A stretch of DNA of 20,747 bases from a virus. A model generated the notes under the pieces. That model was not told the DNA's origin. It searched no databases and saw only the letters and a list, made by a program, of their open reading frames with translations. The stretch lies in the UHGV virus genome UHGV-0017034. One strand, 5' to 3'. Positions 1 through 15,434 of the stretch are shown here, piece by piece (position 1 is the stretch's first letter; every line of letters starts with the position of its first letter). The position numbers were made by a program, and so were the translations under genes.

Positions 1-104
1 TGGTCAGAGATTCGCGTTTCGGAGAAAGTGCGGCTAACATTTCATTAATATTCATTATTGTTTCCTCTTAAGTTAATTAGATATGTTTATTTAGAATTGG
101 AAAC

Positions 105-129
105 AAAAAAGCCACCCCGAAGGATGGCT
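105..129 (-). terminator. Rho-independent terminator closing the tail-tube transcript
   Basis: Minus-strand RNA AGCCAUCC-UUCG-GGGUGGCU (8-bp stem with one G-U, UUCG tetraloop) followed by U6 (plus-strand A-run 105-110); lies 9 nt after the stop of the 138-608 CDS. Confidence 0.7.
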
Positions 130-137
130 AGATAATA

Positions 138-608
138 TTAGAGTTTCTGGAAAACAGCTTGTTTAACCGGAGCACCATCTACTACAAAGGTGAAGGTACG
201 GCCTACTACAGCATCCTCACCACCAGTCATGGTAGTTTTAGACAGGAAGCCGTTATAAGCGATATGTACACCAGATTTTTTCGTAGCGTCGATGTAGTAA
301 GCAATTTTAATCTGTACGCGCTTACCGTCTTCGGTTGCTTTAATCAGTTTTTCGTGTACTTCGTTACCCGGCATGTAGTTGATCGAAAGTTCGATATCCG
401 GTACAGACATACGACCAACCAGCTTACGGTTATACGGACCACCGAAGTTAGGAACATCGACAGTAGAACGTTCTACACCAGTTTCCGGGAAAGCCGCACA
501 TTCTGGAATTTCCAGATAGCTTTCACTGTCAAGATCGGTGTTAGTTACTTCTTCATGCAGAAACAGACCAACGAGGCCACCAGAAAAAATATCAAATTTA
601 GTAGTCAT
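138..608 (-). CDS. Major tail tube protein, lambda gpV-like N-terminal tube domain (156 aa)
   Basis: ORF with AAGGA RBS; motifs INYMPGNE...GKRVQIKI and YNGFLSKTTMTGGEDAVVGRTFTFVVDG resemble lambda gpV (AWMPGEQG...AYKIRF and FRGWVSS...TRTVKVTNVG) as recalled; last gene before a strong terminator, as expected for a highly expressed tube protein. Confidence 0.55.
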   Translation of the reverse strand: MTTKFDIFSGGLVGLFLHEEVTNTDLDSESYLEIPECAAFPETGVERSTVDVPNFGGPYNRKLVGRMSVPDIELSINYMPGNEVHEKLIKATEDGKRVQIKIAYYIDATKKSGVHIAYNGFLSKTTMTGGEDAVVGRTFTFVVDGAPVKQAVFQKL

Positions 609-662
609 TATTCTTTTCCTTCTATTTTAAACAATAGGGCACATACCCGTAATTCTATTTAT

Positions 663-965
663 TTAGCGGTTGCTCAAACGTCTATAACGAAGATGAGCGA
701 TCCCCCTATTTGTGCTAACGGTAATTACCGCCCCTTGCGGTGCAATACAAGAATGAATCTGTCCCCAATCATGACCCTTATGGCTTCCAGAAACACACAA
801 ACCATGAATAAGCAATTCAGAGTCACCACCGCCACCACCGGAAGAATGAGCACAGAATGAAATAGTCCCGAAAGCGTCGGCTGTCCAACCGTTAGGAATA
901 TCAAACCATCCTTGATTTGCTTTACCCGCCCTATTCCCCAAAGCGCCATCTACCCAAAATGCCAT
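663..965 (-). CDS. Small FDIPNGW-motif protein, paralog 3 of 3 (100 aa), function unknown
   Basis: ORF; start ATG overlaps the upstream stop (TAATG); shares M-x-(F/Y)-W, FDIPNGW, Gly/His-rich core and TVS motifs with the two upstream ORFs. Confidence 0.6.
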   Translation of the reverse strand: MAFWVDGALGNRAGKANQGWFDIPNGWTADAFGTISFCAHSSGGGGGDSELLIHGLCVSGSHKGHDWGQIHSCIAPQGAVITVSTNRGIAHLRYRRLSNR

Positions 966-1270
966 TAGTGCATTCTCCTGAATTTAAAATAATGCAAACT
1001 ACCTTTACCCAATGTAAAGCTAACGGTAGCACCAGCGCCAACTAAAGAACTAGCGCCCCAACTCCCAGCATCACCAGCATGATGACCTGATTCAATCAAT
1101 CCATTTACAGCCAATTCAGAATCAAGATCACCAGCACCGTTAATGGCTTCCATATGAGCAAAAACAATTCCGCATGAATCAGTAACCCAGCCGTTGGGGA
1201 TATCAAAATATCCACCATTAGCCCAAATACTAATAGCGTTTGACATTCTTTGATTTATCCATCCAGCCAT
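965..1270 (-). CDS. Small FDIPNGW-motif protein, paralog 2 of 3 (101 aa), function unknown
   Basis: ORF; 2-nt gap to the upstream stop; YFDIPNGW, GAGDLDSEL, WG and TVSFTLG...HYFKF motifs conserved with its neighbours. Confidence 0.6.
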   Translation of the reverse strand: MAGWINQRMSNAISIWANGGYFDIPNGWVTDSCGIVFAHMEAINGAGDLDSELAVNGLIESGHHAGDAGSWGASSLVGAGATVSFTLGKGSLHYFKFRRMH

Positions 1271-1272
1271 AA

Positions 1273-1569
1273 TTAAAACTCCATGAATTTAAAATATTCA
1301 ACACCACCTTCACCCCCTAAACCAAAGGAGACGGTGCAGCCAGCAGGAACAAACGAATTTATAGTAGATCCCCAATTGGTCCCACCACGACGACGAGCAA
1401 CGGTCAAACCATCTACGTTAATATGTGCATCAGACCACCCACCACCAGCATTATGACGCATTACAGCGACACCAGCACGAGCAGTACCATAGCCGTTAGG
1501 AATATCAAATACATGCCATTTTAAAGCATCGATTTTAGTATTAATTTCACTACTTACCCAATATCCCAT
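1273..1569 (-). CDS. Small FDIPNGY-motif protein, paralog 1 of 3 (98 aa), function unknown
   Basis: ORF with AAGGA RBS 7 nt upstream; VFDIPNGY, GGGWSD, NWG and TVSFGLG...EYFKF motifs. Confidence 0.6.
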   Translation of the reverse strand: MGYWVSSEINTKIDALKWHVFDIPNGYGTARAGVAVMRHNAGGGWSDAHINVDGLTVARRRGGTNWGSTINSFVPAGCTVSFGLGGEGGVEYFKFMEF

Positions 1570-1582
1570 ATAAGAATCCTTA

Positions 1583-1600
1583 GCGGAGATTTCTCCCCGC
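1583..1600 (-). promoter_or_regulatory. Intercistronic GNRA-tetraloop hairpin between the fiber gene and the paralog triplet
   Basis: Minus-strand RNA GCGGGGA-GAAA-UCUCCGC (7-bp stem with one G-U, GAAA loop), no U-tract, immediately upstream of the paralog-1 RBS. Confidence 0.4.
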
Positions 1601-1607
1601 TTTCCAA

Positions 1608-4600
1608 TTACCCTAATTTAGCTTCAATTGCAGCAAGACGTTCACGAAGAAGTTTATTTTCTTCGCTCATTTCTTGGACCGCTTTAATTAAAAGCGCGTT
1701 CACTGCGGAGTTTGAAATTGTTAAAATTTCTTCTGGGTTATCAAAACCACCAATTTTTGCGGTTTTAACAGCTTCCGGTAATACCTCTTGTAAATCCTGT
1801 GCGATAATACCAATCTCATGACCTATAACTTCTCGGTCATTAAGAGATTTAACTTTATCGTAGGTTTTAACTTTGAGTTTATTTACCTTATCCACCGCAT
1901 TTTCTTCGTAATCTTCAACATTAATTTTCAGACGACGATCGGAACGAATATAAACATCGTTAAAGTTTCCGTTACCAGTGGCATGAAATTCTCCACTTGC
2001 ATGGAATTGATAATCAGCACCCTGAACATGAAGAACCGCTGCCGCAGTATTATTACTATCACCGGGACAATGAACGTCCATAGCAGCGATGTAGTTACGC
2101 CCCCAATCAACCGCTTTCCAAATAGCATGAGCACTATCAACGCTTTGTTGACAGTCAACCAACAAACCAGCAGGTCGGTCTCTCCATGCAACATATGCAC
2201 CACCAGAAACCTCACCACGGATAAGTCCTTGATCTGCGGCATAAGGAACACGCCCTTCCAGTTTAATCATCGCGCCCTGGAAGTGATGTGTAAATTGTCC
2301 ACCGTGGTTATTGCGAATATGTAAAATACCCTCATCTGTAGCCCAGATAACAGCCTTTTCCGTATCGCTATCATCTCTAAACCAGACGTGGCGAGCACCA
2401 GCAGAGTTTTTGATAGTAATCCCGGAAGGTCCATGCACAGTAAAAGCGCCAGCAACATCAAACATCAAACTGTTATCTGTCCTACGTTCAGTATAGAAGT
2501 GATAACCTTTGGAATCACCGACTTCCATCACTGCCGCGCGACCAACTTCTGAATTTCCCCAATTATTAATAGAGAATCGTTCAGAGCTATTATTCATCTG
2601 ATTTAGGTATAATGTACCATCAGTGAATGTTTCGCCAAAGAATCTGGTTTTAACGCCGTTAGTACCCCCCACGCGTTCAAATTCAGCCAAGAAACCTTTG
2701 GAATCTCGCATACTCAAAACGTTATTGCGTCCTGTATTACTGTTACCCCAATGGATTAATTCAATATAGTCCATTGACTGACGAGACCCTGATCTAAACA
2801 CCATATTATCTTCGATGCGGGTGCTACCATCAATTCCCAGATGTAAACAGCGTGCGGTAGCTGTGCCACCTAGATCTAATCCACCTTCGGCGAAATCATA
2901 ACTAAATGGTCTACGAGTGTTCCACGTCCCAAAGGAATCTTTTAAATCGGTAGTAAGAATATGGAAGCTAGAACCATCATTACGAAGGATTAAACCATAG
3001 TTACCACCTTTGACAGCCAAACGAGCATTTTCAGATAATGCCACTTCGCTATTCATTACAATTTTCTGGCCTCTACCGCCAGTAATATGTAATTCACCGT
3101 CTTCAATCAGGTTTATAGAGTTTTGACCGTTGTCGTTCCACCAAATAAAATCTTTGGTCTGACCATCACCGAAGCCAAACCAGCCATTACGAACATCTTG
3201 TCCAGTGCGATAATCCATGAAATTAAAATGACTTGATTCGTTTGGTCCTCGACGAATATCAATACCAGAATTTCCAGTAACACCGCCATCCAATGTTAAT
3301 TTCTTGACATGTAACCCGGATGTTGCTGACAGCAATAATTCCTGATTTGTATCTTCGTATCCAGTAGCAAGACGATATGCGTTATCATCAACTGTCTCAT
3401 GCCAGATTGTAGCTGGTGCACAACTACGGAAGCGACGCAACATCTTTTTAGCATTTGTCGGTTGTTCGTTCAAATGCTCAATGTCATATTGGCCTTGATG
3501 ATTGCCAGCAAAATTTAATGTTCCACGGTTGCTAAAGTTATTGAACGATGAAATGTTAAGAGCATCAAAAATTTCGTCTGCAACAGGTTTTTCACCACCC
3601 AGATATTCAGGAGTATCCAACAGGTTTAAAGAAACACCACCGGAAGAAACTTGATATTCTGCTAAAACAAATCCTGTATGTGCACCGTAGTAAGCGTAAA
3701 GATCGTAATTGTCGCCATCGGTTGGAATAGCGCAAAAATGTTGTTCATAATGCCAAATAGTATAATACGCATTGAATACAACACCTTTCGGGCTATTGTT
3801 GCCGCATCGAATCACCAATTCGATAATATTGGCTTGTCCATTATGTCCTACGTTATAACCGTTACCACCAACCAAACGGATCTTAGCCGTGCGACCGTGT
3901 TGTTGTGGCATTGTCAAAGTGCCTAGTTTAAACCAACCACCCTCGATACCAAAATTAAGCGTCTTCTGGAACAGTCGGTCAATTTCTGCTTTCGAATATG
4001 CGCCAATTTCAGCCGGAGTAGGTTTATCACCTTCATGATACATGCGGTGAGAATATGCCAAATGTCCCAATTCATCATAGCCGTATGTTCTTACCGTATG
4101 AACCGGATTAGACCCATAAGTGAACTCAAAACCACGAGCATGATTAACGCCGGATGGGTGCGGAACATGCAAGATCATTGCAATATGACCCGCCAGGTCA
4201 TTCATGCGGAATGCACCAAAGTAGTCAAGATTACGCGCACTCGGATCATCAAAATAGTTTGCGGTCTTAGACAGCAAATAACCATCAGTGTAAGTGTTTA
4301 CGTGCTTTTTGATGTACTTGCCATCACTCGATCCATCGGCTGCATCAATACGGCTTTCTAAACGTGCCAGTTCGGAATCAGTGTAAGACTTGTTATTGTC
4401 AACTTTGCTATGAATTGCTGTATTTTTGGCTTCAACATCACGGGTTAATGCTGCGACGTTATCCGCTGCCTCTTGCTTATTGGCTGCAATCACACCAGTA
4501 AGGTTATTGTAGGTGTCAGTTAACTGATTTTCCGCATAGGCGTGATTTGCTGCGATAGTGCGGTCAGTTTCTGCCTTAATCAAATCAACTTTGTCATTGA

Positions 4601-5132
4601 TTGTTTTGTGATTGCTTGCGATGGTTGCATCGGTACGGGATTTAATATCATCAACTTTTTTATTGATGCGGGTGTCCAGTTCCTGAGTTGCTACAGCAGC
4701 CGCAATTTTATTAGCGTTGATGGTATCCGACAATTCAGCTTTAACACCAGCAAGATCGGAAGCAGCTTTATTTTTATTGGCATCGATTGTCGCGTCGGTT
4801 TCGCGTTTAATTACATCAACTTTATTGTTAATTTCTGCATGATTTGCTGCGATAGTAGAATCAGTAGTTTGTTTAATTTCATCTACTTTAGCGTGAATAT
4901 TGCGGTCATTTACTGCAATTGTGCTATCCAATTCTTGTTTGTTAGCATCAACTTTAGATTCTAGTGCCGCGTGAGTTTCAGGAGAAACAGAGATTTGAAC
5001 TACTTCATGATCTCGGTCTTTGGTGAAAATAACATGGTCTTTAAGGTTGATTGCTACCTCACCGACCTGTAATTGTTCCGGCGTTGGTTTTTTGCCAGAA
5101 ACATTTGTTCGTTTAAATTGGATCGACTGCAT
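1608..5132 (-). CDS. Fiber protein (1174 aa) with N-terminal coiled-coil repeats and C-terminal S74 intramolecular-chaperone autoprotease domain
   Basis: Long ORF with GAGGTGA RBS; residues ~50-260 are ~22-aa repeats (D-x-T-I-A-A-N-H...K-V-D-x-I-K); internal GYHFYTERRTDNSLMFDV resembles the P2 gpH / T4 gp37-type distal fiber region as recalled; C-terminus SDRRLKINVEDYEENAVDKVNKLKVKTYDK...LLRERLAAIEAKLG matches the S74 chaperone domain of endosialidase / T5 L-shaped fiber type. Confidence 0.85.
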   Translation of the reverse strand: MQSIQFKRTNVSGKKPTPEQLQVGEVAINLKDHVIFTKDRDHEVVQISVSPETHAALESKVDANKQELDSTIAVNDRNIHAKVDEIKQTTDSTIAANHAEINNKVDVIKRETDATIDANKNKAASDLAGVKAELSDTINANKIAAAVATQELDTRINKKVDDIKSRTDATIASNHKTINDKVDLIKAETDRTIAANHAYAENQLTDTYNNLTGVIAANKQEAADNVAALTRDVEAKNTAIHSKVDNNKSYTDSELARLESRIDAADGSSDGKYIKKHVNTYTDGYLLSKTANYFDDPSARNLDYFGAFRMNDLAGHIAMILHVPHPSGVNHARGFEFTYGSNPVHTVRTYGYDELGHLAYSHRMYHEGDKPTPAEIGAYSKAEIDRLFQKTLNFGIEGGWFKLGTLTMPQQHGRTAKIRLVGGNGYNVGHNGQANIIELVIRCGNNSPKGVVFNAYYTIWHYEQHFCAIPTDGDNYDLYAYYGAHTGFVLAEYQVSSGGVSLNLLDTPEYLGGEKPVADEIFDALNISSFNNFSNRGTLNFAGNHQGQYDIEHLNEQPTNAKKMLRRFRSCAPATIWHETVDDNAYRLATGYEDTNQELLLSATSGLHVKKLTLDGGVTGNSGIDIRRGPNESSHFNFMDYRTGQDVRNGWFGFGDGQTKDFIWWNDNGQNSINLIEDGELHITGGRGQKIVMNSEVALSENARLAVKGGNYGLILRNDGSSFHILTTDLKDSFGTWNTRRPFSYDFAEGGLDLGGTATARCLHLGIDGSTRIEDNMVFRSGSRQSMDYIELIHWGNSNTGRNNVLSMRDSKGFLAEFERVGGTNGVKTRFFGETFTDGTLYLNQMNNSSERFSINNWGNSEVGRAAVMEVGDSKGYHFYTERRTDNSLMFDVAGAFTVHGPSGITIKNSAGARHVWFRDDSDTEKAVIWATDEGILHIRNNHGGQFTHHFQGAMIKLEGRVPYAADQGLIRGEVSGGAYVAWRDRPAGLLVDCQQSVDSAHAIWKAVDWGRNYIAAMDVHCPGDSNNTAAAVLHVQGADYQFHASGEFHATGNGNFNDVYIRSDRRLKINVEDYEENAVDKVNKLKVKTYDKVKSLNDREVIGHEIGIIAQDLQEVLPEAVKTAKIGGFDNPEEILTISNSAVNALLIKAVQEMSEENKLLRERLAAIEAKLG
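1611..1943 (-). other. S74-type intramolecular chaperone domain (C-terminal ~111 aa of the fiber), predicted to be auto-cleaved
   Basis: Domain begins at SDRRLKINVED, with the conserved Ser-Asp-Arg-Arg-Leu-Lys start and a terminal coiled coil. Confidence 0.65.
4355..4985 (-). repeat. In-frame ~66-nt (22-aa) tandem repeats encoding the fiber coiled-coil shaft
   Basis: Successive units DSTIAANHAEINNKVDVIKRET, DATIASNHKTINDKVDLIKAET, DRTIAANHAYAENQL and others, read from the translation. Confidence 0.6.
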
Positions 5133-5161
5133 CGAATCACCTCACTATAAAACAGGAATAA

Positions 5162-5179
5162 GGGAGGCGTTAACCTCCC
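5162..5179 (-). terminator. Hairpin with U-rich tail between the 277-aa gene and the fiber gene (attenuator or weak terminator)
   Basis: Minus-strand RNA GGGAGG-UUAACG-CCUCCC followed by UUAUUCCUGUUUUAU. Confidence 0.4.
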
Positions 5180-5205
5180 GCGTCATGTTTTATTTAGAGA
5201 AGCAA

Positions 5206-6039
5206 TCAGTATTCCCCGAAGTCGATCCGGTCATGGATAGAAACGGCTTCAATCTCGGCTGGTGTCGGTTTTTCTTCTGTGGAATACACTTTCACCCATC
5301 CAGAATTACCGTCTTTCTGGACTGTGCGAACTCGTAAACGTGGTGCGCCGGAAGCGGTGCAAGTTAATTGCCATCCACCATCTTCATTAGGTTGAGCGTG
5401 AATTAGTGAAGTATCAGCACTAAATGGATTAGATGCGCTTGATCCCTGATAAGTTACGAAACGGTTTCCGGCTAACGCTTCGCTATCAATACCCCCTGTA
5501 AATGGAGATACGCCAGCACCAATACCAAAATCACCCTGACGTAAGATCCGGCCTTCGGTCGCGATACCCCTTGCAAGAATCCCGCCATCTGGTTCAAGTT
5601 TAAATTCCAGTGTTACCGCTTTGTTATCGCTACCACGGGTTTTATGTGATGTGACGTAAGCATCATAGATGACATAGTAACCAGTGTTAGCAGCACTATA
5701 ACCAGAGTTCACAACATAGAACATACGGAAGCGTAAAGGTGTTTTATCCTCTACCGCTTTCATCAACATGTCTTGATGTTCGTCATCCAGAACACGGTTT
5801 ACTACTAACGTAGTTGATTCAAGTTTACGATAGCCAGCCAACTTACCAGTAACATCATGGTCATATTCTTCTAACGTCTGGATCTCTGTGGATTCGGTGA
5901 TCGTAGGGAATGCTGCGATGTTCTCGATAGGACTAAATGCAGGATCGAAAAAGTCCGGCTGGTTATCCACCATAGTAGACACGGAGACTTCAACATGCGA
6001 CCCCGTGAAAATGTCTAAGTTATCTTGTGTAATATTCAT
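5206..6039 (-). CDS. Virion structural protein (277 aa) of uncertain role; C-terminus carries the KPTPAEI motif also present in the fiber
   Basis: ORF with AAGGGG RBS 6 nt upstream; C-terminal EEKPTPAEIEAVSIHDRIDF parallels fiber GDKPTPAEIGAYSKAEIDRLF; beta-rich composition. Confidence 0.6.
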   Translation of the reverse strand: MNITQDNLDIFTGSHVEVSVSTMVDNQPDFFDPAFSPIENIAAFPTITESTEIQTLEEYDHDVTGKLAGYRKLESTTLVVNRVLDDEHQDMLMKAVEDKTPLRFRMFYVVNSGYSAANTGYYVIYDAYVTSHKTRGSDNKAVTLEFKLEPDGGILARGIATEGRILRQGDFGIGAGVSPFTGGIDSEALAGNRFVTYQGSSASNPFSADTSLIHAQPNEDGGWQLTCTASGAPRLRVRTVQKDGNSGWVKVYSTEEKPTPAEIEAVSIHDRIDFGEY

Positions 6040-6048
6040 TATTACCCC

Positions 6049-6471
6049 TTAAAAACGCGCTAGATAAGAAAATTTAAGGCTAAGTGTCCCAACGATACCC
6101 CCATCACTAGAATCATCGTCATAATCGGTATTAGAAGCTACTGGAGTGATATCTGAAATAGAGAAGCCCAAATCTTTAAATCGTGGGTTATCCGGCTGAA
6201 TCTGGATTATCTGGCAAATACCCTCATGGATTTTTGTTTCATGAATCTGAGAATATAATTGCATTTCGATAACGCATTCAGCTTGCATTGCATTACCACC
6301 ACGGACCCTATTGTAAGTCTCATTCATTCCGGTAATCCAACAAACCACATCATCACTAAAGCCTTGCTGAGTTTGTTCTACGTTTAAAGCCAGACCTAAA
6401 TCTTGTTCGATAATATCCTGCAAGGCGCGTTTGATTTTCAGTCTAGGCATGTTATTAACGGTAGCGAGCAT
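6049..6471 (-). CDS. Head-tail connector / tail-completion-like protein (140 aa from the RBS-supported start)
   Basis: Start at 6471 (MLATVNN...) is preceded by AGGGGGTACAC, the same SD type as neighbouring late genes; the longer ORF to 6519 would overlap the upstream gene by 65 nt; function inferred from position between capsid and tail genes. Confidence 0.55.
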   Translation of the reverse strand: MLATVNNMPRLKIKRALQDIIEQDLGLALNVEQTQQGFSDDVVCWITGMNETYNRVRGGNAMQAECVIEMQLYSQIHETKIHEGICQIIQIQPDNPRFKDLGFSISDITPVASNTDYDDDSSDGGIVGTLSLKFSYLARF

Positions 6472-6745
6472 GTGTACCCCCTGCCAGAGTGATAAAGCAA
6501 TCAGTTGTATTGTCACCATTGCGCTTAACGTATTGAACTTTGAAACGCTGATTTTCTACAATGACAATATCCCCCTGCTTTAAGTCTCCCTCACGACAAA
6601 ATAAAAATTCTGTCTCTGTCATTACCCCTTGTTCGTCGGTAGTAGTAATTTCATGATAAGCACGAATTGATTTACCACCTTCCACCGAAAATACAGGAGC
6701 ACTTCGGAACATTCTTGATAATTGTGATTCTGATAATTTGAACAT
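6455..6745 (-). CDS. Head-tail adaptor / head-closure-like protein (96 aa)
   Basis: ORF with AAAGGGGGTAACT RBS; small mixed-charge protein directly downstream of the capsid gene; function inferred from synteny. Confidence 0.5.
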   Translation of the reverse strand: MFKLSESQLSRMFRSAPVFSVEGGKSIRAYHEITTTDEQGVMTETEFLFCREGDLKQGDIVIVENQRFKVQYVKRNGDNTTDCFITLAGGTHARYR

Positions 6746-6775
6746 AGTTACCCCCTTTATGGAGTATTTACATAC

Positions 6776-6803
6776 AAAAAAGCCCCACCGTTAGGCAGGG
6801 CTA
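6776..6803 (-). terminator. Rho-independent terminator downstream of the capsid gene (partial terminator raising capsid stoichiometry)
   Basis: Minus-strand RNA AGCCCUGCC-UAAC-GGUGGGGCU (9-bp stem with two G-U) followed by UUUUUUG. Confidence 0.65.
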
Positions 6804-6936
6804 ATTATTATTCTTTAGTTTTACGTTGTTTTTTAACTGTGGCTTTCGCCGTAACCGTCTGAGATTCTTCTTCCTGAGATGGAATCAGATTTTCTTCCCC
6901 CAAATCGGGGGAAGGTTCAGATGGTTCTACGTTAGT

Positions 6937-8943
6937 TCATTCAGCGGAGATGTGAAGAACTTTCAGAGCTTCCGGCTGGGTTACAACGTAATCCAGATCT
7001 ACCCAGATACGCGGAACGATAGCAGACTGTGCGCGGTAGGTAGTGTCATCAATGTCAAGTTCCAGACCACCCCATTCACCGATGGTAATAGCGTCGAACG
7101 ATCCCAGAACGATGTGGTCTACCGGAATAACACCAGAAGTAACTACGTCGTAACCAGCCAGTTTACCGTTTTCGATGATATAACCGGAAACACCGTTATC
7201 TTTCAGGGTAGATTCCAGTTCAGCAGCAGTTGCACCGCTCATTGCAAACTTGATCGCCTGAGCAGGAACGCCAGCGTCGGTCAGTTTAGCAATTTCTTTC
7301 AGGAAGTCTTTATAAGAGAAAGCAGCTTTCTTCTCTACGCGACCAGCATCTACCAGTTGTTTAATCACACCAGCCGGACCACGAGCATTTTCTTTATCAG
7401 ACAGAATCAGTTGTTCCAGTTTGATGCGAACAGCCTGGTTAATGTGATCAGTGATCAGAGTAGCGATGCCGGGTACGGTTTTTAGGCTCGCTCTGCTGAG
7501 CGGATTCCCACCAGCAAACGTCTTAGGAGACAGTTTCACGTTTGCAAATTCAGCTTTACCTTCCGGCGCAGCACCGTTTTCATCAACGAAGCCGAAAGAT
7601 TCAACGCTGGAAGCGGTCATTTTAGGAATAGCGGTCGGCGAAGTCAGACCAGACAGGACTTTCACACCAAGACGACCCAGAACGGATTCCGGCAACAGCA
7701 TCGCTACATAGGAATCATTCAGCAGTTTTTCGTCGGTTACAGCGGTCAGAGTAGCTTTGGTGTTACCATCAGCAGCAGCACGCATAGCAGCAGTCGGAAC
7801 GAATACAGAGCCACCGCGAGCAGCACGACCACGCTGCATAGTTGCAGTAGCAGCCATTGCAGAAAACTCGGCTTCGTGAGCACCCAGAGCTTCACCATCT
7901 ACCAGAGAGCGAATTACGTTGTTCAGGTCAAAAGTTTTTTCCATTTTAGAGTCCTTAATTTGTTGTTCGTTATTACGTTGAGCATTGACGAGATTATTTA
8001 GTGCCTTAGTGCGGAATGCTTCCGGCGTCATATCTTTAACTGCCAATGCGCGTTCTAATTCTTCGTCGTTAATATTTAGCTCGCGTGCAATTTCGCGAAT
8101 TTCTAATTCGTCTTCTTCGGAACGTTCAGCCACTTCCTCGATTTTTTCTTCTTCATCCGGAGCGGCTTCACGTTCTTCTTTTACTTCTTCTGCTTCCCGA
8201 ACAGTTGAACTATCATCATCAACACTTTCAGGATGTTCAGCGTCTTTTCCGTCTTCGAGATTTTCATCTTCTTTATTCTCTTCAACTTGGCGCTCTTGAG
8301 TTTCTTCAACTTCCGATTCTTTATTTTCTTCTACCGGAGCTTCTTCAACCGGAGCGGATTCTTGTTCTTCTTTGATTTCTTCGATTTGTTCTTTAGTCAT
8401 ATCGCGTTTAGCCTCCAAATTAACTGTGATAGTATTTAGAGAGCGATTTAAACCGACCGAATCGTCCGCCGGGACCGTCACAAATGAAATTTCGTGCGGA
8501 ATCCATTTAGAAACAATGAGTTGCGATTTAGCGTAATCGATGTGATATTCTTTAATGTCATAGCCGACAGAAATTTTTTCCATCGTACCTTCAATAACTT
8601 TATTACGAATATCATTAGCCAAAGTGCCATGTTTAGAGAATTTAACCAGAGCACGGCCTACGTTATCCGCATCGATTCGAGCGTCGCAGACTACACCTAA
8701 ATGATTATCGAAAATATGATTGAACAGCAACGGAGCGTTATTATTCAGACGAGACAGATCAACCGCTTCCGGTGTATGTACCAGAATTTCATCTAATACC
8801 ACCATTTCTTGATTTTGCTCATCCCAAAATTGGCGCTGATAAGGCTGTGTACTTGAGAAAGCAATTTCAAATTCGTATTGATCGTTATGCCCTTCGTTAA
8901 TAACTCCACCGTAACCGTTAAGATCGCGGCGAAATTTAAGCAT
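6937..8943 (-). CDS. Prohead protease - scaffold (delta domain) - HK97-fold major capsid protein encoded as one 668-aa ORF
   Basis: N-terminus has HK97-type protease motifs (PLLFNHIFDNHLG with His, KISVGYDI with Ser, HEISFVTVPADD); residues ~180-330 are an acidic coiled-coil linker; C-terminal ~340 aa has major-capsid character; AAGGTGA RBS. Confidence 0.85.
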   Translation of the reverse strand: MLKFRRDLNGYGGVINEGHNDQYEFEIAFSSTQPYQRQFWDEQNQEMVVLDEILVHTPEAVDLSRLNNNAPLLFNHIFDNHLGVVCDARIDADNVGRALVKFSKHGTLANDIRNKVIEGTMEKISVGYDIKEYHIDYAKSQLIVSKWIPHEISFVTVPADDSVGLNRSLNTITVNLEAKRDMTKEQIEEIKEEQESAPVEEAPVEENKESEVEETQERQVEENKEDENLEDGKDAEHPESVDDDSSTVREAEEVKEEREAAPDEEEKIEEVAERSEEDELEIREIARELNINDEELERALAVKDMTPEAFRTKALNNLVNAQRNNEQQIKDSKMEKTFDLNNVIRSLVDGEALGAHEAEFSAMAATATMQRGRAARGGSVFVPTAAMRAAADGNTKATLTAVTDEKLLNDSYVAMLLPESVLGRLGVKVLSGLTSPTAIPKMTASSVESFGFVDENGAAPEGKAEFANVKLSPKTFAGGNPLSRASLKTVPGIATLITDHINQAVRIKLEQLILSDKENARGPAGVIKQLVDAGRVEKKAAFSYKDFLKEIAKLTDAGVPAQAIKFAMSGATAAELESTLKDNGVSGYIIENGKLAGYDVVTSGVIPVDHIVLGSFDAITIGEWGGLELDIDDTTYRAQSAIVPRIWVDLDYVVTQPEALKVLHISAE

Positions 8944-8963
8944 TTAATCACCTTTAATTAATT

Positions 8964-8980
8964 GGGGGCATTGCGCCCCC
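8964..8980 (-). promoter_or_regulatory. GC hairpin between portal and capsid genes
   Basis: GGGGGC-N5-GCCCCC (6-bp GC stem), no U-tract, immediately upstream of the capsid RBS. Confidence 0.35.
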
Positions 8981-8988
8981 GTTGGTTA

Positions 8989-10500
8989 TTAGGGATCGGC
9001 TGGGGAATTTTTTTCTTCACCCTCGCCATCAACGATAATATTTAGTGCGCTCTTTTCGGCTTGAATCTCTGAGAATACTTTTTCAGGATCATCACCACGT
9101 TCAAGAATAACGGCAGTACGTGATTTAAGTCCTTTATCAATTAAAGCAATCTCGGCGCTTACGTCTTTAAATGGATCGACGGATTCAAAACGCGGACGAA
9201 TAATAGTTGTATTATCGATAATATGTGGAATTGCAGTAATACGAATCGGAACAATACCACGCGCGGAATAATGGCGTAGATATGCTTCGAAAATTGGCAA
9301 TACCACGGTTTCAATCAATTTGTTTTGCAGTGCTTTAACGCGCGTTCTTTGAAGTAATTCGCCGTAGCGTGCGGCGCTGTAATTTATTTGGCTAGTATCG
9401 CCAGTTAAGCCCTGATTGAACACGCCAAGACCCATCGCTATACTCGTGAACATACCAGCGTTAAAGGAATTGAAATCATCGCCGCTTTGCGTGGATTGAA
9501 TACTCTTGATCGTTGCCCCTTCCGGTAATTCCTGAATAGTACCTGGCGCGAAATCGTGAATAACTTCCGGCGCTTGATATTGTTCATCATCTTCACCAGT
9601 ATCAAAATCGTCACCAGAATCTTTCGGACGCTCGATGAACGCCATGCTACTAGCTGAAATTCGTTTCTGGACCAATACAGCTTCGCGGAATGCGTCTTGA
9701 TGTGCGATATCCTTAATCACTGGCAGGAAGTCAGTCACACCACGCAGAGATTCAGCCGCAAGTGGTTGATAATAATGACATACTTGCGAAGCATCTACGC
9801 GATAGTTATCACCTGTGTAAGTCTGAGTCAGTAGGTTGATTTTACGAAACCAGTATGCTACGGGCTTCATCGTCTCTACGTCATACTCCACACCTTGATA
9901 TATCGCACGGTCTTTGCTTACTTCACGGTTTAGCGACCAGTCGCATTTATCAGCAGACAGGATAGAAACATTTAACTCATTGTTTTCTTTGGTTAAAACG
10001 ATGAAGCACTCACCACCCATAACGCGCTCACGTTCAGCCATTACCAGCAGTTCACGGAAGTTAAAGCGACCGTTACGAGAGAAGCGTTTAGCATTCTGCG
10101 CCCACTTCCAGAAAGCATTCTCGATCTGCTTATTCAGTGCGCTATCAAGTTTGCCATTTGATTTAACGATTGATGGCTTCGGATCTAGGCCAGTACCAAC
10201 CACCATATCGGTGATGTATTGCGTGTAGCGACTGCCTACGGAAGTGTTTAAGGCCAGAGTACGACCCTGATCATAAAGGCGCTTACCGTTCGATTTGAGA
10301 GCCTTATTGAAGGTTCCTGTAATGGTGTCTTGTTGAAGTGATCCATCAATGCGATCACCAACCAGACCTAAACTACGTTTAGATAGGTCTTTCTGGAATT
10401 TTTCTACTTGCTTATCGATGAAAATTTTTGGTTGTTGCTGGCGGTGATTAGTTTTAACTGGAGTTTCTACCGCCTTTTTGCGTCGAAAAAGATTAAACAT
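8989..10500 (-). CDS. Portal protein (503 aa)
   Basis: Size, position between terminase and protease/capsid, acidic C-terminal tail; AAGGGG RBS overlapping the stop of the upstream gene. Confidence 0.75.
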   Translation of the reverse strand: MFNLFRRKKAVETPVKTNHRQQQPKIFIDKQVEKFQKDLSKRSLGLVGDRIDGSLQQDTITGTFNKALKSNGKRLYDQGRTLALNTSVGSRYTQYITDMVVGTGLDPKPSIVKSNGKLDSALNKQIENAFWKWAQNAKRFSRNGRFNFRELLVMAERERVMGGECFIVLTKENNELNVSILSADKCDWSLNREVSKDRAIYQGVEYDVETMKPVAYWFRKINLLTQTYTGDNYRVDASQVCHYYQPLAAESLRGVTDFLPVIKDIAHQDAFREAVLVQKRISASSMAFIERPKDSGDDFDTGEDDEQYQAPEVIHDFAPGTIQELPEGATIKSIQSTQSGDDFNSFNAGMFTSIAMGLGVFNQGLTGDTSQINYSAARYGELLQRTRVKALQNKLIETVVLPIFEAYLRHYSARGIVPIRITAIPHIIDNTTIIRPRFESVDPFKDVSAEIALIDKGLKSRTAVILERGDDPEKVFSEIQAEKSALNIIVDGEGEEKNSPADP

Positions 10501-10510
10501 GATTTACCCC

Positions 10511-11005
10511 TTATCGCGTAAGACGTAATTTGATATTTTTAATCGGGCTAATTCCCTGTTTACGTCGTTCGGCTTGAATTAATTTTGATAACTGACGTTC
10601 ATAATCAACTTTTAGAGTCTGGAGAACACCCAATGACTCATAAACGAAAGTATTCCCTTTCACTGTCATTTGAGATAATGCGGCTTCGTCCCCAGATAAA
10701 CGGGCGAAAATAACTTGTTCCAAAATGGCGATAGTTTCCCGCAGATATTCTTTTTTGGATTGTTTGGCGAATACTGGCAAAACAGTTAATTCCTGCATTG
10801 ATACCAGTTCTTCTTCAAAAGTTATTACGATGGTATATTTACCTTCGGCAAAATCTAAGGTTTTAATCTCATGATTAGCCGGAGTATCATCAACCTGATA
10901 AATGATACCTTTACTATTTCCTACCTGAATTGTTACACCCTCTTCATTCGCCAGCGTGATTTTTTCACCTTTACGAATTACTAAGGGAATTAGTTCTAAA
11001 CTCAT
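10511..11005 (-). CDS. Hypothetical protein (164 aa) with a gpW-like (head-tail joining) C-terminal half
   Basis: ORF with AAGGGG RBS; sits between large terminase and portal, where lambda W lies; C-terminal LRETIAILEQ...GNTFVYESLGVLQTLKVDYERQL loosely matches the gpW helix-strand-strand-helix pattern. Confidence 0.4.
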   Translation of the reverse strand: MSLELIPLVIRKGEKITLANEEGVTIQVGNSKGIIYQVDDTPANHEIKTLDFAEGKYTIVITFEEELVSMQELTVLPVFAKQSKKEYLRETIAILEQVIFARLSGDEAALSQMTVKGNTFVYESLGVLQTLKVDYERQLSKLIQAERRKQGISPIKNIKLRLTR

Positions 11006-11053
11006 AATTACCCCTTATTTAATTGTTATTGGATTAACAATATTTAGGAGTAA

Positions 11054-11072
11054 GCCGCCCCGAAGGACGGCG
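11054..11072 (-). promoter_or_regulatory. UUCG-tetraloop hairpin downstream of the large terminase gene (attenuator or RNA-stability element)
   Basis: Minus-strand RNA CGCCGUCC-UUCG-GGGCGGC; no clean U-tract. Confidence 0.35.
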
Positions 11073-11077
11073 AGTTA

Positions 11078-12982
11078 TTAGAACGATGTTATCCAGCTAC
11101 GGCCTCTATTTGGACGTCTGACGATGTTTTGACGTTGTGGTCGTGTGATTGGCTTAGTTTCTTCTATTTGCTCGTTAGATTGCGATTTAGGAGCTTTTAC
11201 GGGTTCTTCGACAACACGGTTTAAGCTGTCTTTCATTGCAATGAGTTTATCCCATGACATTTTTGAAAGAACGTAGCGAGAAGCCGCTGTAGCATACACT
11301 GCGCAGTCGAGCGCCTCGTTCCTAACGCCTGGGTTCTTTACCCATCTCACGCCAGTAGTAGTACGCTTGACAGATTCACTTAAAAGCTGATCGAGATAAT
11401 CATCAGGAACGGTTCCTGATATTTCTAAGCTAATGTGAGGATTGTCTTTCAGGTTTCTAACCAACATTTCACGAAATGCAGTTTTACCCACGTTAACACC
11501 CAACATAAGCAATTCATGACCACCTGTGCGGGTAGGTTTAACCGGAATGATCGGAGCGTTACCAGCAGAACTACCTTTGATAGCGTGTAAGTTCTTCCAC
11601 TTGCCGCAAATACGGTATCCAGCTTGAGTGAATCGACCGTTCGATGTATCAAGGAAGCTGGCGAGCATAGGAACACGATCACCCGATACAGTAGTAAATT
11701 TGGTTTTATGGAAGTTGATTAATCTATCCCATACAGGGGATTCATATCGTTCACAGTTATGATCGTAAAAGCTGCGATGATCCAGAATATAAATCTTATC
11801 CTTTGCCACGCCCATGATTGTAGTTTCTGCGCGATCTAATTGCTGGTCAGTACCCGCACACAAGAAAATCACGTCATCAGGGATATTCTCGATAGAAACA
11901 TCTGTTTTTAGTTGTTCCAGTTCATTTGCTTCTACTGCCGTGTCCTGATCGTCGTATACCTTGCCTAACACGGTGTTATAAAATGATTGTAAATCAAAGG
12001 ATTGCCACGCATGACTAAAATCAACCACACAAGCGCGGATCGTGCTGAAAGGTGAATACAGACGGCTGATCCAGAATCCTGCTACCTCACTTTCACGGGT
12101 TGCTCTCCACTCTCCTTGTGCCACCGCCCTGATCCGCTCTCCTTCTGTCCATGCGTTCTTACAGTGGGGGCAAATATAACGAGCGGTATCAGGATCGGGT
12201 AAGTTCTTACCATCAATGTTACGCCATTCAAACTGTACGTTTTCCCACTCGATCACCTGGTGTCTACCGCAATGAGGACACGGAACAAAAAACATACGCA
12301 TATCGCTTGATAACCATTGCTGGTTAATGCTTCCGAGCTTACTGGTCGGGGTACTGGATACGACTAATCGGCCTTCATCGCCAAAGGTAGTTAAACGGTT
12401 AGCAGCCAGTGCCACCGGATCACCTTCTTCTGAGGCTGTAGCAGCATCGATTTCGTCAAGCAGTCCGACCTTTGCTGTCTTACCGCGTAGGGTTGATGGA
12501 CTAGTAAGCGATACCATATAAAGGAAGTGGTTTGATTTGAGCTGGAGCTGATTGTTGTTATTAACAGAATTGCGATCATTCTTGTCTGTAACCACGTCTT
12601 TTAATGCATCACATGCTTCGATAGACGGTCGGATCTTACCCGCGAGATATTGAGACATTTCTTTAGCGGTTGATTGTCCGATAATCATATTGCATGGATC
12701 GTTAGCCATCTGGTTAAATAGGATGCCGTTCAAGATGGTAGTCTTTCCGATCTGCGCACTGGTCATCAGAACATACTTTTTCTTGTTCTCAAGGAAAGGA
12801 GCATCAATCATACCTTTCTGGAATGACAGCAATTTAACTTTATCCCCAGCTTGAGGACCATCTACCAGCACCATATTCGCTTCGCACCATTCAGAAGGAA
12901 GGAGCTTAGGCGGTGGCGTAATATATTTGGCTGCATTTTTGAGAATCTTTTTTAATTTGGCCTTATTTGAAATCAGTTTCAT
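11078..12982 (-). CDS. terL: Terminase large subunit, lambda GpA family (634 aa)
   Basis: Walker A-like [10 protein letters not shown]; motifs matching lambda gpA as recalled ([11 protein letters not shown] vs LTAGIDSQLDR; [11 protein letters not shown] vs RRNEALDCFVYA; CPHCG...YICPHC zinc-finger-like pairs); GAGGGT RBS. Confidence 0.9.
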
Positions 12983-13067
12983 GTAATTACCCTCATTACG
13001 AAATATGAAGGTATTTATTAAATTGTTGATATTTTGATAAATACGGGTATTAATTAAAGGGGGTTGT

Positions 13068-13670
13068 ATGCTAATTAATCAGCAACAAAGAGATGAATTA
13101 GAATTAGCCTTGTCTTGTACCGATCATGAATATCGTTTACCAGTTAAGCATAAGCATTTAAAAACCGACTACACTACATCTGGCTTTAGTCGTGAGGAAG
13201 CGAAAGAGATTTTAATAGAATTTTACCGCGATAATGGTTATACAGACGTTCACAACTTCTTTAAGAAGCATAGAACATCACATACAGAGTTTCGGAGAGT
13301 CCGAGATTGGTTTGATTTTGATATCAAGCGTTATTATCGAGTGGATGACGGTCCTATCTATCGGTTGCAGTGGAAGCCGATCCGAGAAGTGTTGAAACAG
13401 AAGAGATTGAATCACGCAATTACACGCTATCGTAACGAGGCTTTCAAGAAAGGCTATGGTGATACAAGGGAACTATTCGTTGAACTCGCTAACGTGCGTT
13501 ATAGCCACTATTACAACGATCCTAAAGGGTTCTTTGAAGTGCTTCGCAAGGTTGATATAAGTCGGGGTACATACTATTCACGGTTGAAGAAGTACGGGAT
13601 TAAGGCAGAGTTCTTTATGAGTATTGACGATGGAGAACTTTTTCCGATAAAATGTAAGTCCTCTAAATAA
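13068..13670 (+). CDS. Basic DNA-binding-like protein (200 aa) with a C-terminal HTH motif
   Basis: AAGGGGG RBS 4 nt upstream; C-terminal [16 protein letters not shown] resembles the HTH of the two small paralogs at 13705 and 17159; divergent from terL. Confidence 0.55.
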
Positions 13671-13704
13671 AGGTGAACATTCACTTTAATTTGGAGAAAT
13701 GACT

Positions 13705-13932
13705 ATGACTACTAAAGCTACTCGCGGTCGTCCTGCCCGTTTTAACGCTGAACAGATGGCTGATATTGCCTACGCTTACTATACAGCGGATCGTGGTAAG
13801 GAAGCGAAAGAACAGATTCTTAGTGAACATGGGATCTCAATCGCCCAATTCTATAAGAATATGAAGAAGTTAGACATTAAATTCTATGTTCAGATCGGTG
13901 ATGGTCAGATCGTAGAAGCAACAGGTTTTTGA
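13705..13932 (+). CDS. Small HTH protein (75 aa), paralog of the 17159-17338 product
   Basis: N-terminal ATRGRPARF; HGISIAQFYKNMKKLDIK HTH-like motif; GGAG RBS is correctly spaced for the ATG at 13705 rather than 13699. Confidence 0.55.
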   Translation: MTTKATRGRPARFNAEQMADIAYAYYTADRGKEAKEQILSEHGISIAQFYKNMKKLDIKFYVQIGDGQIVEATGF

Positions 13933-13947
13933 GTTTTGATTCTCTTT

Positions 13948-13972
13948 GCCACTCTTCGGAGTGGCTTTTTTG
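13948..13972 (+). terminator. Rho-independent terminator (plus strand)
   Basis: GCCACUC-UUCG-GAGUGGC perfect 7-bp stem, UUCG loop, followed by U6. Confidence 0.75.
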
Positions 13973-14034
13973 TATCCGCACAAAACTGAGCACATCTCTA
14001 TGATCTATAGATGCCAGCAAAAATGCTGTTATCT

Positions 14035-14071: not shown

Positions 14072-14077
14072 GATTAA

Positions 14078-15412: not shown

Positions 15413-15434
15413 GACGCCAAAGGGTTGACCTAAC

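What the first reader, a model, noticed from the sequence alone, without database searches (positions are those of the whole stretch)
3961..5280. Recurring (G/E)(D/E)KP(T/V)P(A/E)EI motif at module boundaries of the fiber and at the C-terminus of the 277-aa protein
The motif appears at fiber residue ~14 (GKKPTPEQLQVGEVAINL), ~370 (GDKPTPAEIGAYSKAEIDRLF) and ~520 (GEKPVADEIFDAL), and at the C-terminus of the neighbouring 277-aa protein (EEKPTPAEIEAVSIHDRIDF). Codons differ between copies, so conservation is at the protein level. It may mark docking or trimer-initiation segments, or recombination-tolerant linkers where receptor-binding modules are swapped, suggesting the fiber is a concatenation of exchangeable modules.
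Basis: seen in the sequence. Interest (0 to 1): 0.45.

Follow-up and report, generated by a model that had tools for sequence, protein, structure and literature searches.

The report
Tail-fibre module junction motif
The repeated "KPTPAEI" peptide is real, but only two of its four copies belong to a very common, uncatalogued phage tail-fibre junction motif that ends one folded module before the next; this is ordinary fibre architecture.

Summary
The four copies exist, at fibre residues 13-21, 368-376 and 513-521 and at residues 255-263 of the 277-aa protein. They are far above chance and are conserved only at protein level. They are not one family.

- **Copies 2 and 4** are true copies of a widespread tail-fibre motif, W-x-(R/K)-(V/I)-Y-x-x-G-x-K-P-(T/S)-x-x-(D/E)-(V/I/L)-G-A. 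An independent profile scores them at 40.6 and 26.7 bits. The motif is the last strand and exit turn of a knob-like beta domain. It occurs up to 9 times per fibre and joins many unrelated flanking modules.
- **Copy 3** is a different conserved "KP" near the end of the next domain.
- **Copy 1** lies in a T4 gp37-type N-terminal attachment segment.

The 277-aa protein has a tail-tube-fold domain, a knob, and a C-terminus like Krischvirus and T4 gp36 (…IDFGEY). In T4, gp36 binds the gp37 N-terminus, so copies 1 and 4 flank a probable adaptor-fibre joint.

Distant homologues do break at copies 2 and 3. Recent recombination breakpoints mostly lie elsewhere, and the DNA copies are too dissimilar to drive recombination. 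This is a new member of a known mosaic-fibre architecture.

The parts
1608..5132 (-). 1174-aa tail fibre, gp37-type. Layout: N-terminal joint, helical repeats, domain A, domain B, gp37-like distal shaft, and an S74 intramolecular chaperone at residues 1064-1123.
   Evidence: Pfam Gp34_trimer and Peptidase_S74. PHROG long tail fibre distal subunit. 76% aa identity over residues 285-1174 to Krischvirus G37-3 gp37.
4971..5132 (-). Fibre residues 1-54: gp37-type N-terminal attachment segment, containing copy 1 (GKKPTPEQL, window 5070-5096).
   Evidence: 44.7% identity over 47 aa to the T4 gp37 N-terminus, E 1.5e-12. 35.6% identity to G37-3 gp37, E 9e-10. Conserved together with the 277-aa protein in all prophage relatives. 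The canonical-motif profile scores it -2.2 bits.
4332..4970 (-). Fibre residues 55-267: helical repeat spacer, absent from Krischvirus gp37.
   Evidence: Weak Apolipoprotein Pfam hit at residues 120-249. The G37-3 gp37 alignment skips this region. Relative L007 shares residues 1-263 and then diverges.
4053..4331 (-). Fibre residues 268-360: domain A, a knob-like beta domain.
   Evidence: phrog_8378 at residues 268-381. Independent hits in representative proteins span about residues 268-380. hhalign links residues 333-382 to the knob of the 277-aa protein, E 1.5e-5.
3978..4052 (-). Copy 2, a canonical junction motif, fibre residues 361-385: SHRMYHEGDKPTPAEIGAYSKAEID (core at window 4005-4031).
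   Evidence: 40.6 bits, E 2e-12 against a profile built from distant fibres. Alignment ends and starts cluster here. The megablast alignment to G37-3 stops at residue 363.
3597..3977 (-). Fibre residues 386-512: domain B, a beta-sandwich module.
   Evidence: phrog_3299 at residues 382-496. More than 80 representative proteins match only this stretch. It is the only confidently folded block of the AF2 model, fibre 388-518, pLDDT 60-83. Weak Foldseek matches to N-terminal domains of Acinetobacter phage tailspikes.
3570..3596 (-). Copy 3 (GEKPVADEI, fibre residues 513-521). It is not a canonical copy. It is a conserved xKPxG position at the C-terminal edge of domain B.
   Evidence: Not detected by the motif profile. 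Aligns to xKPxG in 16 domain-B proteins, where the canonical motif follows about 18 residues later. 65 alignment ends fall at residues 510-519. Nucleotide identity to four Krischvirus gp37 genes jumps from about 70% to above 90% at about residues 533-541.
5206..6039 (-). 277-aa adaptor-like protein. Layout: tail-tube-fold domain (residues about 10-160, window 5560-6012), knob-like domain (about 165-244), copy 4, and a gp36-type C-terminal tail.
5236..5307 (-). Copy 4, a canonical junction motif, residues 245-268 of the 277-aa protein: NSGWVKVYSTEEKPTPAEIEAVSI (core at window 5251-5277).
   Evidence: 26.7 bits, E 4.5e-8. K257, P258 and T259 are invariant or nearly so in 54 homologues. Longer homologues carry the motif three times.
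5209..5235 (-). C-terminal tail HDRIDFGEY (residues 269-277), a gp36-type joint peptide.
   Evidence: Matches the G37-3 gp36 C-terminus ...KPTPAEVGAVPLNAVIDFGTF (46% over 28 aa, E 9.5e-5) and by eye the T4 gp36 ending ...KDSVQDFGYY (BLAST not significant). D273 and G275 are invariant. The same pairing with a gp37-type N-terminus in the next gene occurs in L012 and DCP80.

Best explanation
Copies 2 and 4 are canonical copies of a widespread structural junction element of trimeric phage tail fibres. Its consensus is W-x-(R/K)-(V/I)-Y-(H/T/S)-x-G-x-K-P-(T/S)-(A/P)-x-(D/E)-(V/I/L)-G-A.

**Shown**
- The first half of the motif is the last beta-strand of a knob-like beta domain.
- The motif sits exactly where sequence homology to one module ends and the next begins.
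- The same motif joins many unrelated upstream and downstream modules.

**Inferred**
- The G-x-K-P turn and the short T-x-x-D/E-I/V-G-A segment bring the three chains back to the fibre axis.
- This lets any next trimeric module start in register. The next module may be a GGTxTG-type beta structure or an SKxExDxxF-type helix.
- Such a standard interface would make modules interchangeable and would be retained by selection on chimeras. It would not act as a DNA recombination site.

**The other two copies**
- Copy 3 is a look-alike: a different conserved KP loop at the end of domain B.
- Copy 1 belongs to the gp37-type N-terminal attachment segment.

**The joint**
- The 277-aa protein is a tail-tube paralogue whose C-terminal arm ends in knob, motif and a gp36-like ...IDFGEY tail.
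- By homology with T4, where the gp36 trimer binds the gp37 N-terminus, this arm most likely docks the fibre's N-terminus onto the siphovirus tail.
- Copies 1 and 4 therefore flank a non-covalent joint, but are probably not its specificity element.
For: - The motif profile built from 164 copies in distant proteins scores copy 2 at 40.6 bits and copy 4 at 26.7 bits. These are the only significant hits in the six-frame window.
- In 182 copies collected by a [KR]P pattern, Y at -5 is present in 167, T/S at +2 in 177 and G at +7 in 131 (K/R and P are fixed by the search pattern). There are up to 9 copies per protein.
- hhalign extends the homology between copies 2 and 4 to 49 columns, including upstream strands (E 1.5e-5). 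BLASTP gives 81 aa at E 5e-4.
- Homologue alignments break at residues 360-399 and 510-519.
- Flanks are combinatorial: 54 upstream and 68 downstream clusters, with 120 pairings.
- The AF2 models place the motif after the last strand of the domain. In the fibre the strand is 358-364, coil 365-380, helix 381-388, and a confident domain B starts at 388. In the 277-aa protein the strand is 246-249, followed by coil.
- In T4 gp34 a degenerate copy at residues 1243-1260 follows the P5 beta-prism (1146-1238) and opens the short terminal beta-helix (PMC5537660 abstract).
- Knob domains in the R-pyocin fibre are joined by short helix-plus-turn connectors (PMC6116203).
- Joint: the fibre N-terminus matches the T4 gp37 N-terminus at E 1.5e-12. 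The 277-aa C-terminus matches the G37-3 gp36 C-terminus. The gp36 trimer binds the gp37 N-terminal region (PMC3004832).
- The adaptor gene is followed by a fibre gene with a gp37-type N-terminus in the E. coli prophage relatives, metagenomic L012, DCP80, Krischvirus and T4.
- The 277-aa protein and the first ~54 fibre residues are co-conserved while the rest of the fibre is swapped.
Against: - No trimer model or solved structure of the canonical motif was inspected, so its 3D role is inferred. Both AF2 monomer models have low confidence across the motif (pLDDT about 35-65).
- The representative proteins were selected by similarity to residues 256-570. The boundary and shuffling statistics are therefore biased towards fibres containing domain A, domain B or the motif.
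- Recent recombination breakpoints are mostly not at the motif. Its role in module exchange is visible only over deep evolutionary time.
- T4 gp36 has no canonical motif next to its C-terminal tail.
- The attachment site of the 277-aa protein on the virion is unknown.
Confidence: 0.7

Rival explanations
1. The motif is a DNA-level recombination site. Short conserved sequences would mediate homologous exchange of receptor-binding modules between phages, as proposed for the GxHxH 'His boxes' of T-even gp37 (Tetart et al. 1998, cited in the reference lists read).
For: - Modules flanking the motif are shuffled.
- The megablast alignment to G37-3 ends at residue 363, the first residue of the motif.
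- A sharp identity step, from about 70% to above 90% nt, lies 8-20 codons after copy 3.
Against: - The copies share only 18-23 of 36 nt, and synonymous positions differ in most codons.
- The identity step at copy 2 is small: 56% to 63-75% nt.
- Six other breakpoints in close relatives (residues about 54-66, 263, 820, 960, 1060) have no KP motif.
Confidence: 0.12
2. All four copies are one docking or trimer-initiation peptide. Each copy would nucleate trimerisation or bind a partner protein.
For: - Copies 1 and 4 lie in the two halves of a gp36-gp37-type joint.
- gp37-type N-termini in many lineages carry G-x-K/R-P-T-A/P-x-x-L/I.
- Buth et al. suggest that knob domains help trimer folding (PMC6116203).
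Against: - The profile rejects copies 1 and 3.
- Canonical copies occur up to 9 times inside single polypeptides, where no separate partner is needed.
- T4 gp36 lacks the motif next to its joint tail.
- The fibre has a C-terminal S74 intramolecular chaperone, which in related fibres is the element that drives trimer folding. That last point rests on established knowledge and was not tested here.
Confidence: 0.1
3. The recurrence is a chance resemblance of short peptides in compositionally similar fibre proteins.
For: - Copy 3 shares only KP with its domain-B homologues. Its ADEI is specific to its lineage.
- Copy 1 scores -2.2 bits.
- The regular expression was defined after seeing the data.
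Against: - Copies 2 and 4 are highly significant against an independent profile (E 2e-12 and 4.5e-8).
- Both are conserved in their homologues.
- Shuffles give 0.00035 matches against 4 observed.
Confidence: 0.05

Closest known systems
T4-type long tail fibre distal half: gp36 (hinge connector) joined to gp37; closest relatives are Krischvirus gp36 and gp37 (G37-3, phiS, KFS-EC, MIZ4)
   Same: - The fibre N-terminus is gp37-type (E 1.5e-12 to T4).
- Residues 285-1174 are 76% identical to G37-3 gp37, with segments 98-100% nt-identical to KFS-EC and phiS.
- The canonical motif occurs 4 times in G37-3 gp36 and once each in G37-3 gp37 and T4 gp36.
- The C-terminus of the 277-aa protein matches the G37-3 gp36 C-terminus and resembles the T4 gp36 ending.
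   Different: - The host element is a temperate siphovirus-like prophage with lambda-type terminase and portal, not a T4-like myovirus.
- The adaptor is not gp36. It gives no PF03903 hit and has a tail-tube fold at its N-terminus.
- No gp34 or gp35 equivalents were found in the window or in the annotated flank read.
- A 210-residue helical spacer is inserted after the N-terminal joint.
Knob (beta-prism) domains and helix-plus-turn connectors of R-type pyocin fibres and T4 gp34 P3-P5 (Buth et al. 2018, PMC6116203; Granell et al. 2017, PMC5537660)
   Same: - Both are strings of trimeric beta domains joined by short conserved connectors.
- The T4 gp34 degenerate copy (PPQPSDIGALP) sits at the exit of the P5 prism.
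- NCBI names some prophage relatives of this fibre 'pyocin knob domain-containing'.
   Different: - No sequence-level match of domain A or the 277-aa knob to solved knob structures.
- Membership of the knob fold was not established, because the monomer models are of low confidence there.
Phage Mu alternative tail fibre S' (gp52), PDB 8JU3
   Same: It carries a clear canonical copy, FEADWSEIYTTTRKPSAGDVGAYTQA, at residues 395-420 (30.2 bits for that stretch, 35.8 bits for the whole chain). It is the only solved chain found with the motif.
   Different: The fibre family is otherwise unrelated (Mu/P2 type with a separate assembly chaperone). The coordinates could not be inspected here.
Conserved-motif-mediated mosaicism of tail fibre genes (His boxes in T-even gp37, Tetart et al. 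1998; Sandmeier 1994, cited from my own knowledge)
   Same: A short conserved element separates exchangeable fibre segments.
   Different: His boxes were proposed to act through DNA homology. Here the DNA copies are dissimilar, and recent breakpoints avoid the motif.

Membership tests
Canonical tail-fibre junction motif (no curated name): W-x-(R/K)-(V/I)-Y-x-x-G-x-K-P-(T/S)-x-x-(D/E)-(V/I/L)-G-A | Significant score against a profile built from copies in distant, independent fibre proteins | tested here: met
   Met by copy 2 (40.6 bits, E 2e-12) and copy 4 (26.7 bits, E 4.5e-8). Not met by copy 1 (-2.2 bits) or copy 3 (no hit).
Canonical tail-fibre junction motif (no curated name) | Aromatic residue Y at -5 preceded by (R/K)(V/I), then K-P-T/S, an acidic residue at +5, an aliphatic residue at +6, and G-A at +7/+8 | tested here: met
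   Copy 2 (RMYHEGDKPTPAEIGA) has every feature. Copy 4 (KVYSTEEKPTPAEIEA) has all except G at +7. Copy 1 has no Y at -5 and QV in place of GA. Copy 3 has Y at -5, but its post-KP residues fit only in part (E at +4, I at +5, against acid at +5 and aliphatic at +6) and it has FD in place of GA.
Canonical tail-fibre junction motif (no curated name) | Located at the C-terminal edge of a beta domain, at a break in homology between modules | tested here: met
   Alignment ends and starts cluster at residues 360-399. The AF2 secondary structure places it after the last strand, at low confidence. hhalign shows shared upstream strands.
T4 gp37-type N-terminal attachment segment | At the extreme N-terminus; IQFKR...G-x-K/R-P...GE-(L/I/V)-A-x-N-x-x-D...TKD; significant similarity to the T4 gp37 N-terminus | tested here: met
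   Fibre residues 1-47 match T4 gp37 residues 4-50 at 44.7% identity, E 1.5e-12. The match to G37-3 gp37 has E 9e-10.
T4 gp37-type N-terminal attachment segment | Binds the C-terminal end of a gp36-type trimer | not testable with these tools
   Known for T4 (PMC3004832). Here it is only inferred, from gene adjacency and co-conservation.
T4 gp36 (Pfam PF03903 Phage_T4_gp36) | Match to the PF03903 profile | tested here: not met
   The 277-aa protein has no Pfam hit, whereas G37-3 gp36 reaches 27.6 bits against a 26-bit cut-off. Only the last ~28 residues resemble gp36. The protein may work like gp36 at its C-terminus, but it is not a gp36 family member.
Siphovirus tail tube protein (lambda gpV-like fold; phrog_158) | Tube-protein fold and a profile match | tested here: met
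Siphovirus tail tube protein (lambda gpV-like fold; phrog_158) | Is the major tube subunit, with its gene directly upstream of the tail chaperone and tape-measure genes | tested here: not met
   That position is held by the 156-aa gene at window 138-608 (phrog_158, E 3.7e-20). The 277-aa protein is a second paralogue.
Pyocin knob domain | Five- or six-stranded antiparallel sheet forming a trimeric beta-prism | tested here: inconclusive
   No sequence hit to solved knobs. The monomer AF2 models are of low confidence in these regions. Some relatives are named 'pyocin knob domain-containing' by NCBI.

The most novel reading that the evidence does not exclude
The non-covalent adaptor-fibre joint may be a split version of the covalent inter-module junction. 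On this reading, a siphovirus tail-tube paralogue has acquired a knob, the motif and a gp36-like tail. The fibre's gp37-type N-terminus carries G-x-K-P-T-x-x-x-L/I in many lineages. It would complete that junction in trans. This would let a temperate siphovirus mount fibres exchanged almost intact with virulent T4-like Krischvirus phages. It would also give a portable, sequence-defined plug-and-socket for fibre engineering.
Probability: 0.2. Interest if true: 0.55.

Novelty: new member of a known kind. Interest (0 to 1): 0.3.

Why it matters
- **Domain delimiter.** No model in the three general libraries scanned (Pfam-A, NCBIfam, PHROGs; PADLOC was not scanned) delimits the motif. I found no description of it in the searchable literature. 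It nevertheless marks domain ends in a large share of tail fibres, so a profile for it would be a cheap, accurate delimiter for annotating receptor-binding proteins and for choosing splice points in engineered chimeras.
- **Adaptor-fibre pairing.** The pairing of a tube paralogue ending in ...IDFGEY with a gp37-type N-terminus suggests how a siphovirus prophage can carry a T4-type fibre. It also documents very recent exchange, up to 100% nt identity, between a prophage and lytic Krischvirus phages. This is relevant to host-range evolution and to phage therapy.
- **Limits.** None of this overturns current understanding. Tail-fibre mosaicism and the gp36-gp37 joint are textbook.

Tried and rejected
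- **Word-indexed protein search with fibre residues 270-568.** It returned only 16 short, close relatives and was not useful. The exhaustive representative search replaced it.
- **PDB sequence searches with the fibre N-terminus and the 277-aa knob.** These gave only spurious beta-trefoil designs and one weak hit to the XM1 collar spike protein (E 0.74). No T4 gp36 or gp37 N-terminal structure is available.
- **AF2 monomer models.** They are confident only for the tube domain and domain B. The knob and motif regions have low confidence, so the 3D role remains inferred. Foldseek on the second model gave only weak tailspike N-domain matches.
- **Literature string searches for the motif.** No phage paper was found. 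Papers on gp36, gp37 and 'conserved motif' do not describe it.
- **Search for a fused adaptor-fibre protein, with an internal gp37-type N-terminus.** None was found in the 250 proteins held.
- **tRNA, Rfam and tandem-repeat scans of the window.** Nothing relevant was found.
Full report
**Context**

The window is a low-GC (about 42%) siphovirus-like prophage of E. coli, inserted near yncJ/rlhA/ydcO. On the minus strand it encodes, in order:
- lambda-type large terminase, a head-tail joining protein, a lambda-type portal and a protease-capsid fusion;
- two small head-tail proteins;
- a 277-aa protein (5206-6039);
- a 1174-aa tail fibre (1608-5132);
- three small ORFs;
- a 156-aa tail tube protein (138-608).

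Tail chaperones, the tape measure and the tail tip lie beyond the window start.

**The observation**

All four peptides are present:

| Copy | Sequence | Protein residues | Window |
|---|---|---|---|
| 1 | GKKPTPEQL | fibre 13-21 | 5070-5096 |
| 2 | GDKPTPAEI | fibre 368-376 | 4005-4031 |
| 3 | GEKPVADEI | fibre 513-521 | 3570-3596 |
| 4 | EEKPTPAEI | 277-aa protein 255-263 | 5251-5277 |

- Copy 3 lies outside the finding's stated range.
- These are the only KP dipeptides in the two proteins.
- They are the only matches to a loose pattern in the six-frame translation of the whole window.
- Shuffles give 0.00035 matches against 4 observed. The pattern was defined after the fact.
- The DNA copies share 18-23 of 36 bases, so conservation is at protein level.

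**Are the four copies one thing?**

No. An exhaustive HMMER search of fibre residues 256-570 against 1.84 billion representative proteins found 233 relatives.

In the best 150, the pattern KP[TSAV]..[DEQ][ILVFM] occurs 206 times, up to 9 times in one protein. Its context is strongly conserved: W-x-(R/K)-(V/I)-Y-(H/T/S)-x-G-x-K-P-(T/S)-(A/P)-x-(D/E)-(V/I/L)-G-A. Y at -5 is present in 167 of 182 distinct copies.

I built a profile from 164 copies, excluding the four closest relatives. It scored the window copies as follows:

| Copy | Score | E-value (six-frame window) |
|---|---|---|
| 2 | 40.6 bits | 2e-12 |
| 4 | 26.7 bits | 4.5e-8 |
| 1 | -2.2 bits | not significant |
| 3 | no hit | - |

Profile-profile comparison extends the similarity between copies 2 and 4 to 49 columns, including upstream beta-strands (E 1.5e-5; BLASTP 81 aa, E 5e-4). 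These two copies are therefore the C-terminal ends of homologous knob-like domains.

Copy 3 aligns with a different conserved xKPxG near the end of 'domain B'. In other domain-B proteins the canonical motif follows about 18 residues later (...DGTVYVIYSSHIKPTATDVGALP...). In this fibre and its Krischvirus relatives that later copy is absent.

Copy 1 lies in a gp37-type N-terminus. It is 44.7% identical over 47 residues to T4 gp37, E 1.5e-12.

**Module boundaries**

I aligned the full fibre against the 150 representatives, excluding the six closest.
- Alignment ends cluster at residues 360-399 (47 ends) and 510-519 (65 ends).
- Alignment starts cluster at 260-269, 360-369 (hits to the motif alone) and 380-399 (82 starts).
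- tblastn against phage genomes splits in the same way.
- The AF2 model of residues 256-570 is confident only for residues 388-518, the block between copies 2 and 3.
- That model places copy 2 as last strand (358-364), coil (365-380) and short helix (381-388), at low confidence.

Across 227 canonical copies in 103 proteins, upstream flanks fall into 54 clusters and downstream flanks into 68. The 204 copies with both flanks give 120 distinct pairings. One upstream cluster is joined to 22 different downstream clusters. This sample is biased by how it was retrieved.

**Recombination**

The motif is unlikely to act at DNA level.
- Codon-aligned identity to four Krischvirus gp37 genes steps from about 70% to above 90% nt at residues 533-541. 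That is 8-20 codons after copy 3, and is where other fibres carry the canonical motif.
- Further steps occur at about residues 820, 960 and 1060, with no motif nearby.
- The step at copy 2 is small, although the megablast alignment to G37-3 stops exactly at residue 363.
- Among E. coli prophage relatives, the 277-aa protein and the first ~54-66 fibre residues stay constant. The rest of the fibre is replaced, with junctions at about residues 54-66 and 263.

**The joint**

Krischvirus G37-3 encodes gp35, gp36 (Pfam PF03903) and gp37 in T4 order.
- Its gp36 has four canonical copies and ends ...YHEGHKPTPAEVGAVPLNAVIDFGTF.
- The 277-aa protein ends ...VYSTEEKPTPAEIEAVSIHDRIDFGEY.
- T4 gp36 ends ...KDSVQDFGYY, with no canonical motif just before it.

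In T4 the gp36 trimer binds the N-terminal region of gp37 (PMC3004832).

The same pairing recurs in three other settings. In each, an adaptor ending in (I/V)D(F/L)G-x-x is followed by a fibre beginning ...FKR...G-x-K/R-P...GE...N..D:
- a 40%-identical metagenomic relative, whose adaptor is 482 aa with three motif copies;
- the DCP80 record, whose adaptor is 698 aa;
- all the prophage relatives examined.

**Mechanism**

Shown:
- the conservation of the motif;
- its position at the end of a beta domain;
- its position at homology breaks;
- the combinatorial nature of its flanks.

Inferred:
- The W-x-R/K-V/I-Y strand packs into the trimeric knob.
- The G-x-K-P turn and the T-x-x-D/E-I/V-G-A segment return the chains to the axis, so that any next trimeric module can start in register.
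- This is analogous to the helix-plus-turn connectors between pyocin knobs (PMC6116203), and to the exit of the T4 gp34 P5 prism, where a degenerate copy lies (PMC5537660).
- Selection for foldable chimeras, not DNA homology, would then keep the motif at junctions.

The only solved chain with a clear copy is Mu gp52 (8JU3, residues 395-420). I could not inspect its coordinates.

**Comparison and novelty**

Tail-fibre mosaicism, conserved-motif junctions and the gp36-gp37 joint are established. No model in Pfam-A, NCBIfam or PHROGs delimits the motif itself, and I found no description of it in the literature I could search. It is nonetheless ubiquitous in databases.

The fibre is a new member of the gp37-type family. 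The tube-paralogue adaptor is the less usual element.

Overall interest is modest.

Noticed in passing
window 647-1569 (ORFs 1273-1569, 965-1270, 663-965, minus strand): Three small ORFs (98, 101 and 100 aa) with no family hit lie downstream of the fibre. They are 95% nt-identical to three ORFs that follow gp37 in Krischvirus G37-3. Prophage relatives with other fibre tips lack them (L007, L008). They travel with the fibre's C-terminal module and may be fibre accessory or assembly genes.
   Followed up: partly
window 5206-6039 and 138-608: There are two tail-tube-fold paralogues in one siphovirus prophage, both matching phrog_158. The 156-aa one sits at the canonical position before the chaperone and tape-measure genes. 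The 277-aa one carries a fibre-like C-terminal arm. Homologues of the latter are 277, 465-482 or 698 aa long, with more knob-and-motif units.
   Followed up: partly
window 1611-1950 (fibre residues 1061-1174) and about 2673-2852 (residues 761-820): Some fibre segments are 98-100% nt-identical to lytic Krischvirus phages (KFS-EC and phiS respectively), while neighbouring segments are 40-70% identical. This indicates very recent mosaic exchange between a prophage and virulent T4-like phages.
   Followed up: partly
window 4332-4970 (fibre residues 55-267): A roughly 210-residue helical repeat region (KVDxIKxxTDxTIxAN..., period about 22) with a weak Apolipoprotein Pfam hit is inserted between the N-terminal joint and domain A. 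Krischvirus gp37 lacks it. It is shared with prophage relative L007 up to residue 263.
   Followed up: no
L011 (GenBank PQ671644, 'Escherichia phage DCP80'), bases 1-18560: This record is labelled a 141-kb Gaprivervirus (T4-like). It begins with an 18-kb siphovirus-type module (lambda-type terminase, portal, capsid, tube-paralogue adaptor, fibre, tube, tape measure) syntenic to this prophage. It may be a chimeric assembly.
   Followed up: no
L009 2688-5162 and L010 2684-5161 (E. coli prophage relatives): In these relatives the fibre at the same locus carries an NCBIfam GTA_spike_fiber domain (NF048003, 'phage head spike fiber') at residues 460-661. It is followed by a 92-aa ORF and a second 349-aa fibre protein. 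The same anchor therefore mounts very different tips.
   Followed up: no
window 15900-17400: This stretch of about 1.5 kb has no ORF of 60 aa or more on either strand. It has the lowest GC in the window (0.36) and several short tandem repeats (16481-16536, 16936-16971). It may be a regulatory or origin region of the prophage.
   Followed up: no
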